NCBI RefSeq assembly: GCF_009914755.1
Contig: NC_060941.1
Direction: 5' to 3' (one strand)
From: the human T2T-CHM13v2.0 reference genome, Homo sapiens
DNA: 64,000 bases
In this document: positions 1 to 64,000 of the stretch, in pieces
How the letters are laid out: every line of letters begins with the position of its first letter
Numbering within the stretch: position 1 is the stretch's first letter
Position numbers and translations under genes: made by a program
Notes under the pieces: model-generated
What the model was told of the DNA's origin: nothing
What the model saw: only the letters and a program-made list of their open reading frames with translations
Databases searched by the model: none

Positions 1-12704
<12,704 letters not shown>

Positions 12705-18080: not shown

Positions 18081-22817
<4,737 letters not shown>

Positions 22818-33947: not shown

Positions 33948-35032
33948 TCTCTTCGAACTCCCTCCTTCTGCCGCCCTCTCCCGCGCCACCCAACCCCCTA
34001 CCCGCCGCTAAGTCCCGGCTCGGCTCATTCCCGCCCGAGGGCCCCGCGCTGGGGTCGGAGAAGCGCGCGGCCTGCGGCACCGGGAACCGCTATGGATCCG
34101 TTCGTTCTGGGGAACCAAGACTCTCGCCCCCACCCCCTTCCTGTCCCGTACGCTTTGAGGCGTCGACTGCTCCTGGGACGGAGCCTGGGGTTGGGGGGCT
34201 AAGGCTGGGAGCGGGCTCAGGCTCGGGAACCGTATCCTTGAGGTTTTCTTTCCTCTCCGCTACGAGTGGCACTTTCTCATGTTTCTGCAGCCTTTCCCTC
34301 TCCCCCGACTCTTAGGGTCTTTCTCTGGTGTCCCAGGCAGGTCTGACTTTCCGATGCCACCTGCCGCTTACATCCACAGAGGCGGCAGACACACCAAGGG
34401 GGTAGGGTAATCCAGTGTGTCCCAGTAAGCAGCTCCTTCCCCACCCGTATCCTCGAGGTTCCAGGAAGCTGACATTCCAGAGGCTTCTGCAGAAGCGCAC
34501 TCACTCCTCTGGAGACAGCTGATGAAGCAGAGCCCGTGGGTAAAACTCTGAAGTCATGGACTTGTCAAATTCTCCTAGCGGGGTCATTTGCCCAATTAAT
34601 TTCACCAACCTTTAAGTCACAGGGATTAAGAGTAGAGGGACTCTGGGGACTGTGTCCCTTCCTCCTCCCTTCCCCTGGCCTCCCTCCTGTCACCAGCTTT
34701 CCTGCTCTTTAATTATTGAGGAGCTGCAGGGTTGGACGTTCTCCGGTTTAAGGCGGCTGCAGAGGCAGTGGTGGGGGCTGGGTTGATTACCCCACCTCTG
34801 CCCAGGAGCTGGAGAGCCGGGGTCGGGGAGGCTGGTGCCCAGACCATGAAGAAGGCCCGGCTATGGCGCATCACTCCCCCGCCAACATGCCTTTCCCTAG
34901 CCCTTGCCTCTCCCACTCCTCCAACTCCAGATCCTCTTGAGTAAAAGTATTAAAGAGTGCTGGCGAAAGTCAGACAGAAACTTTCACAGATAAGCTCACT
35001 TTGCAGTTAGCTCTCCTTCCCTTGTAAACAGT

Positions 35033-35038
35033 TTTATT
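35033..35038 (-). terminator. RNF157: RNF157 polyadenylation signal AATAAA
   Basis: TTTATT on + strand, the canonical hexamer I found between the stop codon and the FOXJ1 promoter. Confidence 0.8.
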
Positions 35039-36280
35039 CATTTTTAAGAATCATGCAGCAATCCATAAATATTGCATTCTTGATGTCCCCACTGTAGTGT
35101 GACCACAAGTGTACTCCAGGGAGAGGGGTACACAGATGGCACAAGCAGTATACACATGCACACACCAGGTGTGCAGACCAAAGCAAAGTGAGCGACCAGC
35201 GTGCTAAACTCCAGGTGGGCAGGACCCCAACTCCCAGGTGAGGTGGGCAGGACCCTAACTCCCAGGCCAGCCGGCTTAGAGTGTGGTGGTCTGTGCCCAG
35301 GAGATGCCTCAGCGGGGGTAGAAACTCTGGTGGGATGGAGCTGGGCAGAAGGAAAAAAGGGCTCTGTGAGGAAGCCGGGATCACACCACCTGAAGGCAAT
35401 AGGGAGAGCACAGGCCTAGTGCAGCAGGAAGGAGCCCTGGGTCTCCATAGTTAGGCTGTGCCCTGTGGGAGAAGCCAGGCCCCACCTCTTCTCTTTGGGT
35501 GAACTGTTGACGTGACTATGTGACTGTCTCCAGATGAAGGACTGGGGCAAAAGGGTTGGCCACTGACCTGTCCTCATCAGGCTGACTGAGGACCAGCTCC
35601 TTGGATGGAGTATTTCTGTGGGCCAGAGAGCTAAATGACAGCCAAGAGAAGGCAGGGGGAGGGAGGAAGAGGAGAAATAGTAACTGAGAAACAAGTAAAG
35701 GACATTTCTAACCTAGGTATGCCTTGGACATGGGACTGAGGCCTTGAGGAATCTTTCCGTGCTTCTCCCTAGGAGAGGACTAAGCACCTGCTGCGAGGAA
35801 GGACAGGGATCCTCAGGAAGGGGGTCCTGGCCACTGTGGCTACTGTTTACCTGAATCTCCTTCATCTCAGCTCCTTCCTCCCTCCTCCCAGGTAACACCA
35901 CACTGTGAATACTACCTGCAGGGGACAGGACAGGAGGTGGTCTGTGTGCCACCACCCCAGGGTAAGGGAAGCTCCCTGTCACCTGCTGCTTCTGGGCTCA
36001 TATTTCAGGGAAATCAGGAAGTGGGGTTATTGCTCAGCTTATGCATCTTAACTATGAAAGGGGCGGGAAGAATGTAGGGGGAAGGAAGGAAAGAACATTA
36101 GGTGGGGCCTGAAATGGTAAAGTCTACTGCAGTTTTTCAGAGAGGGTTGGACGACAGGCCCCCCTCTCCATCAGGGCAGGATGTGAGCCACAACCACTAG
36201 GCAGTGAGACAGTCACTGCACTCCTGGCCTCTGCAGCCACACAGAAACGAAGGACCCCCTGGGCACCAGGCTCTTTTTGA

Positions 36281-37149
<869 letters not shown>

Positions 37150-37777
37150 AAGAGCTCCTTCTTAACCGCACAGGCATGTGAGGCCCAGAAGACTGGCTCT
37201 GCCACCAGAAGGAAGGATTGTTTCCTTCAACCAACCTTTTGGTTGCTACCATTTCTTGTCCTTGAGAAAGGTGCTCCTAGTGCTTGTAGAGGGAAACGCT
37301 ACGTCCGTGCAGTATGGCTCTCCCTTTCCACAGGAGCGATCCTCCAGCCCTACCCCAAACTGCAGGTTTCCAATTGGTTATGATGTGCCAGAGACCAGGA
37401 AATGCCAGAGGGATGTTTGTAACAAAGCTGCCAAACTCTAAGCCTTCTTGTTCTACCCCCTAAGGAGAAAAAAGATGTGTAAGAAATTAGCCCATGGACC
37501 CCAGCTCCACCTGAACATCAATATACCGTGAGGACATTCCAGAGTCCCTGCAAAAGGTCTCGTGAGCTGCAGTTCATTGAGTGGCTTTAGGTCACACGGA
37601 GAAAGGAGGGTTCCAGTTCCCTCTGAGAGGTGAGGGATTGTGGTTACAGGTTGTAACAGCTGTCACAGGAGGGTAAAAAGTCTCCAGCATCTTGCTGAGG
37701 ATGCCCAGTAGGCAGCAGCTGAGTGAGGATGGATGGAATGCAGGGCAGGAGGGGAGCCCAAGTGCAGAGGCTGGGGC

Positions 37778-37896
37778 TCAGACAGCCAAAGGGCCCCACA
37801 CACAGGGCCTCGTCTCAGAGTCCTCCAGGCTGCTGGATGACAAGCGCCGGCGCTGGGCATTCCGACTGACGGCATTGTCATCAGCCTGCCAGGCAC
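37778..37896 (-). CDS. RNF157: RNF157 terminal coding exon (19): AWQADDNAVSRNAQRRRLSSSSLEDSETRPCVWGPLAV*
   Basis: TTTTCTCTTCCCCAG|GT acceptor; TGA at 37780-37778; 119 nt. Confidence 0.92.
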
Positions 37897-46871: not shown

Positions 46872-47794
46872 CTAGGACAGAAGGAAGGCCCTGTGAGTCT
46901 ATGAAGCGGCAAAATGAGTAAACTGATTGGCTGAAGACAGAACTAATCATCCTACTGGTATCTAACTCCAGGGCCTACGTTAATAGCATATATTTCCATC
47001 TGTGTTTAATATGCCTCAGAGGCTGAGTAGAGGCAGATCTTGCTTGGAGAGGCACCATCTGCCTACAGGGATTAGATCCGAGCCACATTACCCATATATG
47101 CTCAGAATGGTCTGTCAGGAACACCCTTGTTAATAGTTTAGCTGATACTGTTTCTCTAAGGTGGAAGTAAAAATTACTAAATGAAAGAGCAAATTGTGAG
47201 ATCATAAGACTTTCAGAAATCCCTTAAGATCCCAAACCCCATCCAGATCCTCCATTGACAGGAGTTGGCTCAAGAAGAGTTCTAGGGCTCTCACTGTGAG
47301 CTGGCGTTCCACAGCACACCATGGTCAGGGCACGTCTCACACTGAACTGTGGTCCTGTCTGCCTGCTAGACTGGGCTCCTAGATGGGTGCAGTGGGCTGG
47401 GGGTAGGCAGAAACCTCACCACACAGGTCTGTATAGGTCTATATGTGCCCTAGCACCAGTAGAGCACCTGTGACACAGTCCTCCATGTAAATACTAGTGG
47501 AATGAAGGACAATATATTCTCAAGGCCAGGGGCTGGCCAGAAAAGTTCCCTCTTGAACTCACTCCACACCAGTGACCCTGGGAACCAGTGGCCCCACTCA
47601 CTGGACAGTCCACAGGCCCGGGAGCAGCTGCTCTCATCTCTACCCACATTCCACTTCTCACTGATCTAGGCATGTCCCCTAGGAAGGCTTCGTCAGCGCA
47701 GCCTCCTGGCCCTGGTCCTTACTGGCATCCCCAGCCAAGGCCAGCACTCCTCTGGTTGTGGGAAGGGGGCACCACTCCGTGCTGTTGGGGTTAC

Positions 47795-50790: not shown

Positions 50791-50935
50791 CCAGTGAAAC
50801 CTTTGCCACTGCCTCAGAGGGTGCTGACAAGGTGTTTGATGAGTGAATGAGAGCAGAGGGACCTGATGAGGCATGCAGGTAGGAGGGAAGTCCCTGGAGT
50901 ACAACACCCAAGAAGAGGAGAGGAATGTCAATTAC

Positions 50936-51044
50936 CTCTCCGAGATGCTGAACCGACAGTCTCTGAGAGAGCTGTGTCTCCGACTCGCTGCAGGAATGCT
51001 CATCTTCCTCTTCATGCAGCACGGAAGAGTTTTGGGAAGTGGAT
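50936..51044 (-). CDS. RNF157: RNF157 coding exon (13): STSQNSSVLHEEEDEHSCSESETQLSQRLSVQHLGE
   Basis: CTCCTACAG|A acceptor; GAG|GTAATT donor; 109 nt. Confidence 0.9.
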
Positions 51045-51877
51045 CTGTAGGAGTCCAGTGGAAAAGCAGCTATATCCAACGTCCATTTAAAGAACAGAAC
51101 TTACTGCAAGGGGAGCTGAGGGGAAAACCCAAATATTTTTTGCTTGTTTATTTTTTGAGACAGCATCTCATTATGTTTCCCAGGCTGGGCTGGGACTCCT
51201 GGGCTTCAGCGATCCTCTTGTTGACGCTTTAACAGAGGAGGAGTACAGCCTCCTGAGTAGCCGAGTAGGTCTGGGCTAACTTGCCTGGCTCGAAACCCAA
51301 ATCTTAAGTAGGACTAGGGAAATAGAACCAGAGAGGGATGGAGACCTCTTTTGGGTGTCAGAAGCGCTAAGTTTTACTTTTAGCTCCTCTGATGACTTGC
51401 TATCTAAACTTGGGAAAAACCACTGCCATTTACAGGGTCTCAATATTTTCATCTGTAAAATACCCTCCCCTTTACTCTGCCACAGAAACCTTGTCATGAT
51501 TTGTGCCTAGCTGGATTTAGATGTTTAAGAGATACGGATCACAAGGTTCCTTCAGTCTTCGGACTAAGCAATGCTCCCAGGGGCCTAGAAGGCCCTATCC
51601 ACAGTGTTCAACATCCTCTTCCCTATATCCCATCCCCTATCCTTGAAAGAAAAAAAGAATACATAAGAGATTTGTCTCATCAGAGTTTTCTTAAGTACCT
51701 ACATACCATCTTATTTTCATCTCTTAATGGATGGGATAACCTTCACGCAAGCAGCTCTGGGAACAGCCCAGAGGGTTACTCTGCCCTAAGTCCCCAGGAT
51801 GTGGGCCAGCACCAAGGAGGGATGAAGCATTTCATCAAGGATTCCGGGGGCAACAGTGTGGAGCACTGGCTACTCAC

Positions 51878-52116
51878 TTGGAGAGACTCTTTTTGAGTTT
51901 GAGTCCCTGACTGCTGCTGTCAGACAGGCGGTCAAGAGGCGAGATCGTCCTGACGGGGGGCAGGTGGCCATCACTGCCATATGAAGGGAGCATTCCTGAG
52001 AGGTGGCCATCTCCAAGCACGTGAAGTGGAGGAACTGCTGGGGACGGGGTGAGGGGCCCGTTGAGGGCCTCCAGAAGAGATACTACTTCATAGCCTGGTG
52101 GAATATTCTCTGAGGA
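51878..52116 (-). CDS. RNF157: RNF157 coding exon (12): SSENIPPGYEVVSLLEALNG...KLKKSLS
   Basis: TTCCCCTAG|TCC acceptor; CAA|GTGAGT donor; 239 nt, open frame. Confidence 0.92.
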
Positions 52117-53560: not shown

Positions 53561-54077
53561 CAGTGCGTTAGTCTAAAGAAAGACAGTATCTGCTGCTCTC
53601 TAACTGCAAAGCTTTGAGGTTTCACCCTAATATCAGCACTTACACTAGGAAACTGAAGTCAGTTACTTTATCTCAGGCACTGAGGCCACAAAACAGGATA
53701 AAGAAAAACAGTTACTTTCTTCGAGGATTCAAATAAAGATAATAAATTGTATTTAAATCCAAAATAATCGTCCCATTGTTTCTGCCTGGGGGAGTTCAAG
53801 TTGAACCTCACTGGAGTGAAACTGCAAGCAGATGGCTCTAGGAATGGTAAACATTAACTGGACACCAAGTTCCCAAGGAGGAAAAGGGAGGTTTTCAGTA
53901 TTCAATTTTCCACAGTAATAAGTTGGTTTTAACGCATGCTCTCAGCCGGCTTGCTAAATACTGCAGCATGCCCTGGTCTAATTCCTTGCTGCAATGCCAC
54001 GTAGAGAAGCATGAAAAGTTTAAAAAAGCCAATGAGGCATTTGCTTCAGAGGGGCCGTGGTTCCGAGCCCAACTTAC

Positions 54078-54190
54078 TGGATGCTCTTCAGAGTCAGATG
54101 TCTGGGATGAGATGATGGGGTTAAAGCTGGTTGGGGACAAGGGGCCCAATTTTTTCCTCATGGCTCGGATCTGAAGCAGTGCCCGGAAGG
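54078..54190 (-). CDS. RNF157: RNF157 coding exon (11): FRALLQIRAMRKKLGPLSPTSFNPIISSQTSDSEEHP
   Basis: TCTCCTTCACAG|CC acceptor; CCA|GTAAGT donor; 113 nt. Confidence 0.94.
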
Positions 54191-54385: not shown

Positions 54386-54545
54386 GCAGTCGGCAGATGG
54401 GGCAGTTGTTGGCCTGGTAGCGCAGCGTGTCTGCACAGGTGTTACAGAGGCAGAGGTGGCGACAGGGCAGAATCAAGGTGTCCCGGACATCCGAGAGACA
54501 CACCACACACTCGGCACTGTTATCACTCACTTCGTCTTCAGCCAC
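54386..54545 (-). CDS. RNF157: RNF157 coding exon (10) encoding the RING finger CVVC...CRHLCLCNTC...CPIC
   Basis: RING-HC Cys/His spacing; CAG|GTG acceptor; TGC|GTAAGC donor; 160 nt. Confidence 0.96.
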
Positions 54546-55900: not shown

Positions 55901-57290
55901 TAATTTTTGTATTTTGTGGTAGAGACGGGGTTTCACCATGTTGACCAGGCTGGTCTCAAACTCCTGACCTCAAGTGATCCACCTGCCTCAGGCTCCCGAA
56001 CTGCTAGGATAACAGAGATGAGCCATCAAGCCCGGCCAGCCCTGTTTCTTAAAACCCCAACTACCAAGGCCCAATCCCACTCCCATTAACCTGGGCCATG
56101 TCAGTGTCTAAGTTGGCCCTGCCCCATTTACTTTTAGGAGCACACTCTTCTGCCTCACCTCTGTTTCTTAGCCATCCCTTCCCCTAAGACATAGCCTGTC
56201 GCTGATTTTATATCCCACTCTCCGTTTTAACAGTCTGTTGCTAATGCCAATCTAACAAGAGGAAAATGGACAAACCATCTTCCTCTAGCTACACGAGCCT
56301 TTCCATCCCATCCAGGCCTCCTGGAGAACCAGGCCTTCCCCCATGAGGCAACTCACCAAGGCCTGGCCTGCCCAGGTAGTGCCCTGGGCCTGAGCCCAGG
56401 ATCTGTTTCCTCCTCTGCTGCTCTTAAAACTTGTTTTCATGCAGTGATTATATTGGAAAACTAATTTATCCTAAGATATTCTTATTATTGACCTCATTAA
56501 AAGAGAGGCGAGTAATTAACCTAAAAGAACGAACAGTGTAGAATTTCAGGTATCTATCACCCATCTACAGGAAGGCTTTTCTTTGCATCTCGAGGAAGCC
56601 CAACCCTGCCTCCTACCCAGCTGCTCTACACCCTCCGTGAGATGACCTGCCCCTCACCCACCCTCCCTTGCCAATGCCACTGGCACCACTCTCTCTCCTC
56701 CCAGTGATGTCTCCTCCTACCTCTACAAGAGTGGAAAGAAAAGTGCTGGCACATGGTAGGGGCTGGGACTTTCTAGCAGACATATGCACAAGGTGCTGAT
56801 CATTCTGGAAGAGGGAGAATGGATGGCTAACTTTGAATTTTAGAAAAGGAATGGATAAATTAAGCCAATGACTCTAATTACACTAAATTGGACCCTAATG
56901 CTTTATCCTTTCGCTTGAAATGTTTCTCACTCTGGCATTTTAAATAAAAAGAGTTCTCCCTAAACCCAATGTTGGGAAATAAATCTTGTTCTTTCATTTC
57001 TCAAGTCCTTTGCTCAGATAAAGGCTCCCTCAACACCAACACTTCTGGAACAATGAAGACCTCAAAAATCAGCATTCCTTTCAGGCCACCCAAGTCGTTT
57101 GTAATAGCTTGTAACATTCAAAAGCACTCCCTTTTTTTCTTTTCTTCTTTGATTAAAAAAAAAAAAAGAGGAAAAGGAGAGAGCAAAAAGTAAAACAAAA
57201 ATAAAAAAAGAGGGAGAGAGAAGAAGAAAGGAAAGAATAAAAGGAAGGAAGGACCCTAATACTAACAGTCTGTGGTCTTCAAATACTTAC

Positions 57291-57338
57291 TACTTGTTTC
57301 TGTTTGAGGGGCTTGACACAGAAAGTTCCATCTGTGTG
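57291..57338 (-). CDS. RNF157: RNF157 coding exon (8): HTDGTFCVKPLKQKQV
   Basis: TTTTCATTCCAG|CAC acceptor; GTA|GTAAGT donor; 48 nt. Confidence 0.92.
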
Positions 57339-58088: not shown

Positions 58089-58368
58089 CTGAAAGAAACA
58101 AAGGCACGTGAGTGAAGAAGCCCAAACAGCACATCTTGATGCCCATGACTTTCTCCAGTTCCCTGCAATCTGGCAAACCAAATGTGCCAGTCTGTCTCTA
58201 GAAGGGGCACGTTATATAACCCATACTTTTTTTTTTTTGAGACAGAGTCTGGCTCTGTTGCCTGGGCTGGAGTGCGGTGGCATGATCTTGGCTCACTGTG
58301 GCCTCCGCCTCCCGGTTCCAGCAATTCTCCTGCCTCAGCCTCCCAAGTATCTGGGATTATACGCATGA

Positions 58369-58725
<357 letters not shown>

Positions 58726-58728
58726 TAG

Positions 58729-58863
<135 letters not shown>

Positions 58864-59070: not shown

Positions 59071-59551
59071 CTGAAGGGAAAGAAAAGGAAAGGAAAAAAA
59101 AAGAGGACTTAACACATTTACATGGCACAGCTAATCTCAGAAAGGGCGATACTGTCAAGAAGCATTAATCTCATCTCTGCTCCTCATTCTTTAGCCTTGT
59201 TAATTACCCAAGTTTGTTAACTGAGGGCCATCAGCTGCTTTTTAAAAATGTCATAGATGTAAATAAGAACCTCTAACCTATAGATTTTTTTTTTCTTTGA
59301 GCATGGCTTTCTCAAAGTATCCTAGGCTAATGGGCTATTTCCATTCCTAGGGAATGGAAAAATTAACAAAGTTAGGTATATCCTTGATGCAAAATAAGCA
59401 GAGCTTTAAAAGGACATGATGAAGTCACAAGGCTGAAAGGTAAGCATGGCCTTCAAGCATCCGAGCAGCCCCTTTGCTGTCAGACCGAGTCCTAAGTAGC
59501 CCCTAGGCCCTTCTGAGTGGATGTGGGAAACCCTCCCCAGAGGCAGCTCAC

Positions 59552-59669
59552 CTCCTCTTCGGCCCACTCGGAGGGATCCACGGTGTGGGAGGGCAGGCAG
59601 AACTGCTGACACACTCCTCGCTTGTACTGCACAGTCTCCGACTGGAGGCTGTTGTCTTTGGGAATGTAG
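59552..59669 (-). CDS. RNF157: RNF157 coding exon (5): YIPKDNSLQSETVQYKRGVCQQFCLPSHTVDPSEWAEEE
   Basis: CAATAG|C acceptor, GAG|GTGAGC donor; 118 nt; phase fits neighbours. Confidence 0.93.
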
Positions 59670-60072
59670 CTATTGATACAAGTGGGAGGCAAAGCAAAAG
59701 TCAGTATCCGGCACAGATGGGTCTGACAACTTCCTCTGCTCATGCCTGTTCTCAATTATCAACAGGGTCTAGCGAAGAGAAGAAAGGGTCCTTTATAATC
59801 CATTTCCTTTGCTCTTGCTTGGCAACGTTAAACTTTTCTATTCAACCCACACATCCAAAGAAAGGTAGCTTACTAGATTTTTAACAGCATGTTAAGGACC
59901 TGAAGGACTATACCACCATTTGTCACTATACCAAGATGGCACAATTTGAAGGGAAAAGGTAAAGGGTAGGGCTTTGTAGAAGAAAGTCTAAATTCAGGAA
60001 CCAGATCTCATCTGGCTGCAGAAAAAGAATGTTTTCCGCCCTTGCTGAGTGGATAAGACATGGACTCTCCCT

Positions 60073-60234
60073 ATCTGGGAAGGAAGTGGCTCGCCTGGTC
60101 TCCTGATCTTACCTGGTAATACCATTCTGGAACTCTTCCGTGGCCTGGTAATAATCTGGGAAGGAAGTGGCTCTCCTGGTCTCCTGATCTTACCTGGCAA
60201 TACCATTCTGGAACTCTTCCGTGGCCTGGTAATA
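60073..60234. repeat. Tandem duplication, 2 x 81 bp, spanning an RNF157 exon/intron boundary
   Basis: 60073-60153 vs 60154-60234 differ at 2 positions (60093/60174 and 60117/60198). Confidence 0.97.
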
Positions 60235-60340
60235 GATGGTGATGGCTACCCGAGCATCTGTGTCAAAGGTGAACTCAACATTGTAGTGGACTTTAGCTTT
60301 ACTGGCCTCTTCTCCAGGGCTCTTCACTTCCTCAGCACAT
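60194..60340 (-). CDS. RNF157: RNF157 coding exon (inferred exon 4): CAEEVKSPGEEASKAKVHYNVEFTFDTDARVAITIYYQATEEFQNGIA
   Basis: Acceptor TTTTCTAG|A, donor CAG|GTAAGA; 147 nt, phase 2-2; MGRN1/RNF157-family N-terminal domain. Confidence 0.93.
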
Positions 60341-60479
60341 CTAGAAAACCAGAGACTCAGCATTTGCAGAGTAGCATATCAATATTTTAAAATTTACCTT
60401 TAAAAAAATTAGCAATATATTGTGGGCTTCTCTGAATGATCATAAGCATAGGTCTACCTCTTCATTCTGAATGATCACA

Positions 60480-64000
<3,521 letters not shown>

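What the first reader, a model, noticed from the sequence alone, without database searches (positions are those of the whole stretch)
60073..60234. Recent 81-bp duplication gives an RNF157 exon two identical splice donors, the second one a poison choice
Seen: the last 41 nt of the 147-nt exon plus the first 40 nt of intron are tandemly duplicated with 2 mismatches in 81 bp, so the event looks young. The donor CAG|GTAAGA occurs at 60194/60193 and again at 60113/60112, each preceded by near-identical exonic sequence including GAAGAG. Using the second donor adds 81 nt, but the frame reads GCC AGG TAA (stop at 60192-60190), upstream of the RING exon and many junctions. Established: with duplicated 5' splice sites, SR proteins favour the intron-proximal site and hnRNP A1 the distal one, and such stops trigger NMD. 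Inference: this may be a lineage-specific switch linking RNF157 dose to SR/hnRNP balance.
Basis: partly seen in the sequence, partly recalled or inferred. Interest (0 to 1): 0.8.

Follow-up and report, generated by a model that had tools for sequence, protein, structure and literature searches.

The report
Duplicated splice donor in RNF157 exon
An 81-base stretch spanning the end of one RNF157 coding exon is present twice in a row, giving the gene a spare, identical splice donor whose use would yield a truncated, degradable message; whether cells ever use it cannot be told from sequence.

Summary
Window 60073-60234 is a head-to-tail 81-bp duplication, 79 of 81 identical. It covers the last 41 nt of the 147-nt RNF157 exon and the first 40 nt of the intron. 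Two identical donors CAG|GTAAGA result, at 60194|60193 and 60113|60112. Splicing at the second reads ...NGIAR-stop (TAA 60192-60190). That stop lies 77 nt before the new exon end, with 15 junctions and the RING exon downstream, so NMD is predicted.

The upstream donor is the ancestral junction: the paralogue MGRN1 ends its exon in the same codon phase with one donor.

"Recent" is relative. Two differences suggest about 12-30 My, with a 95% range of 1.5-108 My (rates recalled).

This is a two-copy member of a known class, tandem repeats spanning an exon-intron boundary (F7, LMNB2, PDGF, IFI6, CBS; PMC1557585). Published rules conflict. F7 uses only the upstream site. Globin and adenovirus constructs with identical strong sites use the intron-proximal one almost exclusively at 45 nt separation or more (PMC3413131).

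The SR/hnRNP "dose switch" is untested speculation. No RNA, population or primate data were within reach.

The parts
60194..60340 (-). 147-nt RNF157 coding exon (…CAEEVKSPGEE…YYQATEEFQNGIA, ending in codon phase 2: AG|C = Ser)
   Evidence: hub annotation; translation and junction read-through; paralogous MGRN1 exon ends in the same phase
60154..60234 (-). Copy 1 of the 81-bp unit: last 41 nt of the exon plus first 40 nt of the intron
60073..60153 (-). Copy 2 of the 81-bp unit, wholly intronic under the annotated splicing; 79 of 81 identical to copy 1
60188..60196 (-). Donor 1, CAG|GTAAGA (cut between 60194 and 60193): the annotated, productive, ancestral donor; 8 of 9 matches to the U1-complementary consensus
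   Evidence: hub annotation; MGRN1 comparison
60107..60115 (-). Donor 2, an identical CAG|GTAAGA (cut between 60113 and 60112): a duplicated pseudo-donor 81 nt downstream
60190..60192 (-). In-frame TAA, read only if donor 2 is used; it is made of bases +2 to +4 of donor 1
   Evidence: …NGIAR*; 77 nt before the extended exon's end, 15 junctions downstream
60068..60073 (-). Single TAGGGA (hnRNP A1-type motif; the motif's identity is recalled) straddling the distal edge of the duplication. It lies at +40 to +45 of donor 2 and +121 of donor 1, and is absent from the copy 1 / copy 2 joint
59552..59669 (-). Next coding exon. Its acceptor …CACTTGTATCAATAG| has an interrupted pyrimidine tract. The intron is 524 nt from donor 1 and 443 nt from donor 2
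54386..54545 (-). RING-finger exon, downstream of the premature stop
   Evidence: PF13920 zf-C3HC4_3, E 3.4e-15, 56 bits

Best explanation
A real 81-bp tandem duplication of the exon/intron junction arose in the lineage leading to this human haplotype, probably millions to tens of millions of years ago. The upstream donor (60194|60193) remains the authentic, productive one. The downstream copy (60113|60112) is a sequence-competent pseudo-donor inside the intron. The exon is defined from its 3' splice site to the first good donor met in the 5'-to-3' direction, so donor 1 is taken and copy 2 is removed with the intron. Any splicing at donor 2 adds 81 nt carrying TAA and is cleared by NMD as unproductive by-product. 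I judge donor 2 to be silent or a minor leak, and the duplication to be a tolerated, near-neutral accident and not an evolved switch. Shown: the anatomy, the stop, the ancestral status of donor 1, and the strength and identity of the donors. Inferred: the choice of donor, NMD, neutrality and age.
For: Anatomy. Donor 1 is the junction shared with the paralogue MGRN1 (…NGRAV|Y vs …NGIAS|Y, same codon phase, single donor, no repeat). The shared Ala codon makes G at 60198 ancestral and A at 60117 a later change in the unconstrained copy. The hub's RefSeq table lists 8 RNF157 transcripts and no exon ending at 60113. Natural precedents come from PMC1557585 (Introduction, one Results subsection and Discussion read). 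In F7 IVS7 (37-bp unit, 5-9 identical donors) only the most upstream donor is used although all are functional. The same paper reports use of the authentic donor only in LAMIN B2 (100-bp unit) and PDGF intron 4 (81-bp unit). The PTC lies 77 nt before the extended exon's end with 15 downstream junctions. Two differences in 81 bp give about 12-30 My, so the allele has been tolerated for a long time if fixed.
Against: The opposite rule is well documented. With two identical high-complementarity 5' splice sites, globin and adenovirus constructs splice almost wholly at the intron-proximal site. In HeLa cells and in vitro, proximal use reaches about 100% at separations of 45 nt or more (PMC3413131, passages). 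Here the sites are strong (8 of 9) and 81 nt apart, which by that rule favours the poison donor. Predicted folding does not hide donor 2: mean unpaired probability is 0.41 vs 0.14 in a 471-nt fold, and 0.31 vs 0.25 in local 120-nt windows. Purine-rich GGAGA and GAAGA words lie between the donors, that is, upstream of donor 2. IFI6 and CBS use one or two downstream repeat donors (PMC1557585). A 403-bp junction duplication in FGG wrecks splicing (PMC9052919). NMD would hide a donor-2 isoform from annotation, so its absence from RefSeq is weak evidence. F7's donors are weak (UGG/gugggu), unlike these.
Confidence: 0.55

Rival explanations
1. Donor 2 is used for a substantial share of RNF157 pre-mRNA, following the intron-proximal preference for identical strong sites. 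These transcripts are destroyed by NMD. The duplication therefore lowers RNF157 output in carriers and makes it sensitive to the SRSF1 / hnRNP A1 balance.
For: PMC3413131 reports near-exclusive intron-proximal use for identical strong sites 45 nt or more apart, increased by SRSF1. The donors are identical from -4 to +19 and strong. Donor 2 is not predicted to be less accessible. GGAGA and GAAGA words lie upstream of donor 2. A single TAGGGA sits at +40 of donor 2 only; it could give hnRNP A1 a handle to shift choice to donor 1 (motif recalled, role inferred). PTC and NMD geometry is met.
Against: No exon ending at 60113 appears among the 8 RefSeq transcripts (hub table). Natural boundary-spanning repeats mostly leave downstream copies silent (PMC1557585). 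Nothing on RNF157 splicing at this exon turned up in five searches. There is no evidence of selection on copy 2, and two substitutions give no power. A regulated switch needs more than leaky use.
Confidence: 0.22
2. The second U1-binding site acts as an intronic helper and not as a competitor. U1 bound at donor 2 strengthens definition of the exon or the rate of splicing of this short intron, whose acceptor is weak, while the cut is still made at donor 1.
For: The intron is short (524 nt) and its acceptor has a poor pyrimidine tract, …CACTTGTATCAATAG. Two U1 snRNPs can sit on two alternative sites in complex E, and the surplus one is purged later (PMC3413131). A downstream 5' splice site recruits SRSF1 and U2 components to the upstream 3' splice site (PMC8724738).
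Against: In the cited experiments the site that is kept is the proximal one, not the distal one. Nothing specific to this locus supports a helper role. This is inference only.
Confidence: 0.1
3. The two-copy state is not the general human state. It would be an allele private to, or rare outside, this haploid assembly, a copy-number polymorphism, or an assembly error.
For: I could examine only one genome. Tandem units of this size are prone to unequal exchange. F7's repeat is polymorphic, with 5-9 copies (PMC1557585).
Against: Two substitutions between the copies imply a lower age bound of about 1.5-3.6 My, older than a private mutation. An assembly stutter would give identical copies. RefSeq transcripts map cleanly onto it (hub table).
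Confidence: 0.08

Closest known systems
F7 (coagulation factor VII) intron 7 37-bp minisatellite (PMC1557585)
   Same: The first repeat unit spans the exon-intron boundary. The authentic donor is followed by copies identical in sequence. The downstream copies are competent, and the annotated mRNA uses the most upstream one.
   Different: F7 has 5-9 copies of 37 bp with only 4 exonic nt and a weak donor (UGG/gugggu), and is known to be polymorphic. RNF157 has 2 copies of 81 bp with 41 exonic nt and a strong donor (CAG/GUAAGA). Here donor usage is known from annotation only.
PDGF intron 4 (81-bp unit, 16-18 copies) and LAMIN B2 (100-bp unit, 10-15 copies), as listed in the Introduction of PMC1557585
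   Same: Long units spanning a donor junction; only the authentic donor is reported as used.
   Different: These are many-copy minisatellites. I saw only the summary sentence in PMC1557585, not the primary papers.
IFI6 (6-16) intron 2 and CBS intron 13 repeats, as listed in PMC1557585
   Same: Reiterated donors at an exon end. Here the first one or two downstream copies are really used, which shows that leakage can happen.
   Different: Many-copy repeats in which only the first downstream copies are used. I saw only the summary sentences in PMC1557585, so the coding outcome of the extended forms is unknown to me; in RNF157 every extended product carries a stop.
FGG exon 8-intron 8 403-bp duplication causing afibrinogenemia (PMC9052919)
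   Same: A two-copy tandem duplication of a donor junction in a human gene.
   Different: It is pathogenic. The major product retains the intron, and normal splicing is rare in minigenes. The unit is larger and includes a cryptic acceptor.
Experimental duplicated 5' splice sites (globin C174C, adenovirus Ad1CC; PMC3413131 and work cited there)
   Same: Two identical, strong donors competing for one acceptor at a separation of 45 nt or more.
   Different: These are artificial single-intron substrates in vitro or transfected. The result is the opposite of the annotated RNF157 choice, since the intron-proximal site wins.

Membership tests
Tandem repeat spanning an exon-intron boundary with reiterated donor pseudo-sites (F7 IVS7 type) | First repeat unit contains the exon end and the intron start | tested here: met
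   Copy 1 is 41 exonic plus 40 intronic nt
Tandem repeat spanning an exon-intron boundary with reiterated donor pseudo-sites (F7 IVS7 type) | Downstream unit(s) carry a donor identical to the authentic one | tested here: met
   Both 9-mers are CAG|GTAAGA, and the copies are identical from -4 to +19
Tandem repeat spanning an exon-intron boundary with reiterated donor pseudo-sites (F7 IVS7 type) | Multi-copy, length-polymorphic minisatellite | tested here: not met
   2.0 copies in this genome. Polymorphism could not be tested, as only one genome is held. It is therefore a two-copy duplication of the same architecture, not a minisatellite.
Tandem repeat spanning an exon-intron boundary with reiterated donor pseudo-sites (F7 IVS7 type) | Only the most upstream donor is used physiologically | not testable with these tools
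   The only evidence is indirect: RefSeq models in the hub table all end the exon at 60194. No RNA data are held.
Unproductive splicing coupled to NMD (poison splice site) | The alternative site introduces a stop more than 50-55 nt upstream of a downstream exon junction | tested here: met
   TAA 60192-60190 lies 77 nt before the extended exon's end, with 15 later junctions in the window. The rule itself is recalled.
Unproductive splicing coupled to NMD (poison splice site) | The isoform exists and rises when NMD is blocked | not testable with these tools
   No transcript data. Searches for RNF157 with nonsense-mediated, UPF1 and A5SS found nothing relevant.
Unproductive splicing coupled to NMD (poison splice site) | Choice responds to a splicing regulator, and the element is conserved or selected | not testable with these tools
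   No primate or population sequence is held. Motif content is only suggestive.
RNF157/MGRN1 gene structure | Exon end at the same codon and phase in the paralogue | tested here: met
   The MGRN1 exon on contig C16 matches at 61% identity (E 7.8e-10). It ends …GCA GT|GTGAGT, phase 2, with a single donor.

The most novel reading that the evidence does not exclude
In humans, and perhaps other apes, a considerable part of RNF157 pre-mRNA is spliced at the duplicated intron-proximal donor and destroyed by NMD. A junction duplication would thus have turned a constitutive exon into a dose valve. The single TAGGGA just past copy 2 and the purine-rich words between the donors would let hnRNP A1 and SRSF1 set the ratio. 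RNF157 would then be a natural, endogenous two-identical-donor reporter of that balance, in a gene reported to act mainly in neurons (recalled, no call).
Probability: 0.12. Interest if true: 0.7.

Novelty: new member of a known kind. Interest (0 to 1): 0.4.

Why it matters
Two published rules for choosing between identical 5' splice sites make opposite predictions at this locus. One says the most upstream site wins (F7 'oriented scanning'). The other says the intron-proximal site wins when both are strong and 45 nt or more apart. Here an endogenous human gene carries exactly two identical strong donors 81 nt apart, including 41 nt of duplicated exon context. The losing outcome is marked by a stop codon. 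A simple count of junction reads would show which rule holds in vivo at this locus. If the second donor is used, RNF157 dosage in the carrier lineage is partly set by unproductive splicing. Variant interpretation also changes: a mutation of donor 1 would probably activate donor 2, as in F7, and give a null allele instead of exon skipping. If the second donor is silent, this is one more tolerated junction duplication.

Tried and rejected
1. Other copies of the unit: a search of the window's own genome found only this place, so it is not a dispersed repeat.

2. Other genomes: one exact-pattern scan of the prokaryote genome collection, in case of stray primate DNA, found 0 matches. No primate, GRCh38 or pangenome sequence is held, so dating by phylogeny and testing polymorphism were impossible.

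4. Literature on RNF157 itself used five searches.
- RNF157 + splice: 58 papers, of which I saw only titles and abstract starts of 20.
- RNF157 + nonsense-mediated: 3 papers.
- RNF157 + VNTR: 1 paper.
- RNF157 + UPF1: 3 papers.
- RNF157 + A5SS: 2 papers.
By title or abstract none concerns this exon. The one I opened (PMC12528612) merely lists mouse Rnf157 in a chromatin table. Supplementary tables of splicing and NMD studies were not searched and could hold junction counts.

5. Structural masking of donor 2: rejected. Predicted unpaired probability is, if anything, higher for donor 2. This is weak evidence either way.

6. A non-coding RNA or an antisense gene under the repeat: Rfam gave only one far-below-threshold match elsewhere (mir-1545 at 59771-59821, 19.5 vs 78 bits). 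Stop-to-stop frames are unremarkable.

7. Mini-intron between donor 1 and the CCCAG at the end of copy 1: rejected by eye, since 38 nt is too short for a human intron (recalled limit).

8. Primary papers Eperon 1993 and 2000 and the 2013 review on competing 5' splice sites were not held. The rule is cited from passages of PMC3413131 and PMC8724738 instead.

9. The large protein-homologue searches were not spent. The paralogue in the same genome answered the question of the ancestral junction.

Full report
**1. What is in the sequence**

On the gene's strand (minus), the 147-nt RNF157 exon (60340-60194) ends …TAT TAC CAG GCC ACG GAA GAG TTC CAG AAT GGT ATT GCC AG|GTAAGA.

- Tandem Repeats Finder reports one array at 60073-60234: period 81, 2.0 copies, 97% matches, no indels, score 310. 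The repeat finder gives the same two 81-nt copies.
- Copy 1 is 60234-60154 and copy 2 is 60153-60073. They are 79 of 81 identical.
- The differences are 60198 G vs 60117 A (exon position -5; Ala GCC in copy 1, Thr ACC in copy 2) and 60174 A vs 60093 C (intron +20).
- The repeat does not run on at either end, and the two edges share no base, so there is no microhomology to suggest a mechanism.
- The chance of 79 or more matches of 81 between unrelated neighbours is about 5e-45.
- The unit is unique in the window's own genome: 1 candidate, 1 match.
- Among the 10 rows TRF reports in the whole window at score 100 or more, the only other units over 50 bp are four of about 300 bp, which I read as Alu-like from their consensus.
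- Two substitutions between the copies speak against an assembly stutter.

**2. Consequences for reading the gene**

Both donors are CAG|GTAAGA (60196-60188 and 60115-60107). They match the U1-complementary consensus at 8 of 9 positions, contiguously from -3 to +5. They are identical over at least -4 to +19.

- Joined at donor 1, the exon reads through into the next exon (59669-59552) as …EEFQNGIAS YIPKDNSLQSETVQYKRG….
- Joined at donor 2, the 81 extra bases keep the frame (27 codons). But the second codon of the extension is TAA (60192-60190), made of bases +2 to +4 of donor 1, so the product reads …NGIAR-stop.
- The stop lies 77 nt before the end of the extended exon, with 15 further exon junctions inside the window.
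- The RING finger is encoded six exons further on, at 54386-54545 (PF13920, E 3.4e-15).
- By the 50-55-nt rule (established knowledge, recalled) such a message is an NMD substrate.

**3. Which donor is the original**

A search of the same genome with the exon's peptide finds the paralogue MGRN1 on contig C16 (61% identity, E 7.8e-10).

- Its exon ends …AAC GGC AGG GCA GT|GTGAGT, that is …NGRAV|Y. This is the same codon and phase as RNF157 …NGIAS|Y.
- It has a single donor and no repeat behind it.
- Donor 1 is therefore the ancestral junction and copy 2 is the added material.
- The shared Ala codon makes G at 60198 ancestral, and the A at 60117 a later change in the copy that is free to drift.

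**4. How old**

Two differences in 81 bp is 2.5%. With recalled human-lineage rates of 0.5-1.0e-9 per site per year, the point estimates are 12-30 My. The Poisson 95% range is 1.5-108 My. Gene conversion between the copies would make this an underestimate.

"Young" is therefore fair only on a mammalian scale. The event is unlikely to be a private mutation and may well be shared with other apes or Old World monkeys. I could not test this. No primate, GRCh38 or pangenome sequence is held, and a long-shot scan of the prokaryote genome collection for stray copies found none.

**5. Which donor is used**

Direct evidence is limited to the hub's RefSeq table. It lists 8 RNF157 transcripts and no exon ending at 60113. 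NMD would deplete such an isoform, so this is weak evidence.

Published rules disagree.

(a) Natural repeats that span a donor junction are a known class. They are summarised in PMC1557585 (abstract, Introduction, one Results subsection and Discussion read).
- In F7 intron 7, 5-9 identical donors 37 bp apart are all competent, yet only the most upstream is used in three cell types. The next one takes over only when the first is mutated.
- LAMIN B2 (100-bp unit) and PDGF intron 4 (81-bp unit) are reported there to use only the authentic donor.
- IFI6 and CBS also use the next one or two copies.

(b) Globin and adenovirus substrates with two identical consensus donors behave the opposite way.
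[quoted passage not shown] In HeLa cells and in vitro, proximal use is about 100% once the sites are 45 nt or more apart.
- The bias is explained by double U1 occupancy and is raised by SRSF1 (PMC3413131, passages).
- The antagonism with hnRNP A1 is named in PMC8724738 (passages).

RNF157's donors are strong and 81 nt apart, so rule (b) predicts the poison donor, while rule (a) and the annotation say donor 1.

(c) A 403-bp junction duplication in FGG mostly causes intron retention and disease (PMC9052919, abstract and two sections). This shows that such duplications are not always harmless.

**6. Local features that might tip the balance**

- Predicted folding does not mask donor 2. Mean unpaired probability of the 9-mer is 0.14 (donor 1) vs 0.41 (donor 2) in a 471-nt fold, and 0.25 vs 0.31 averaged over nine 120-nt windows.
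- Between the donors lie GGAGA at +10 and +18 of donor 1 and the duplicated GAAGA at -26 of donor 2. Purine-rich words upstream of a donor usually help it (recalled), which would favour donor 2. The A-to-C difference at 60093 removes the second GGAGA behind donor 2.
- A single TAGGGA, the recalled hnRNP A1 high-affinity word, straddles the distal edge of the duplication at 60073-60068. That is +40 of donor 2 and +121 of donor 1, and it has no counterpart at the copy 1 / copy 2 joint.
- Before the duplication this word sat +40 of the only donor. Now it is close to the pseudo-donor alone.
- It could either damp donor 2 (hnRNP A1) or, as a G-triplet, help it (hnRNP H/F; recalled).

None of this decides the matter.

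**7. Verdict**

The most likely reading (0.55) is a tolerated junction duplication. The ancestral upstream donor does the work, and the downstream copy is silent or leaks a little NMD-bound product.

I give about 0.22 to substantial donor-2 use and about 0.12 to a genuinely regulated valve.

It is a new, two-copy member of a known kind. I found nothing on it in print: five RNF157 searches, judged from titles and abstract starts of the listed papers only, with supplements not searched.

Its value is as a clean endogenous test case for two conflicting rules of 5' splice-site choice. Junction counts in existing RNA-seq would settle it.

**8. Other strand and surroundings**

No RNA family reaches threshold in 59400-60900. 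No notable open frame lies on the plus strand. The annotated antisense RNA ends far away, at 47191 (hub table).

Noticed in passing
window 35213-35266: A 28-bp unit repeated 1.9 times at 96% identity (TRF score 101). It lies in the last RNF157 exon (35017-37896), downstream of the coding end at 37778, and so in the 3' UTR.
   Followed up: no
window 59670-59689 (minus strand): The acceptor that both donors must pair with, …CCTCCCACTTGTATCAATAG|, has a pyrimidine tract broken by purines. It looks weaker than most other RNF157 acceptors in the window (by-eye comparison of 15 acceptors). A weak acceptor on a short 524-nt intron may matter for how the two U1 sites are resolved.
   Followed up: partly
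window 60172-60190 and 60091-60109: Inside each unit is a small 8-nt direct repeat, CAGGAGAC CAGGAGAG (TRF period 8). It is intact in copy 1 and broken in copy 2 by the A-to-C difference at 60093, which hints that A is the older state there.
   Followed up: no
window 57286-57294 (donor of the 48-nt exon 57291-57338) and 54073-54081, 51873-51881, 50931-50939: Several RNF157 donors lack G at position -1: GTA|GTAAGT, TGC|GTAAGC, CCA|GTAAGT and CAA|GTGAGT. By contrast the duplicated donor is among the best matches to consensus in the gene.
   Followed up: no
window 4046-4661, 6521-7459, 21944-22581, 58232-58831, 63436-64000: Head-to-tail pairs or triplets of units about 300 bp long show up as 'tandem repeats' of period 296-316. 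I read them as Alu elements from their consensus. One pair (58232-58831) lies in the RNF157 intron two exons downstream of the duplication.
   Followed up: no
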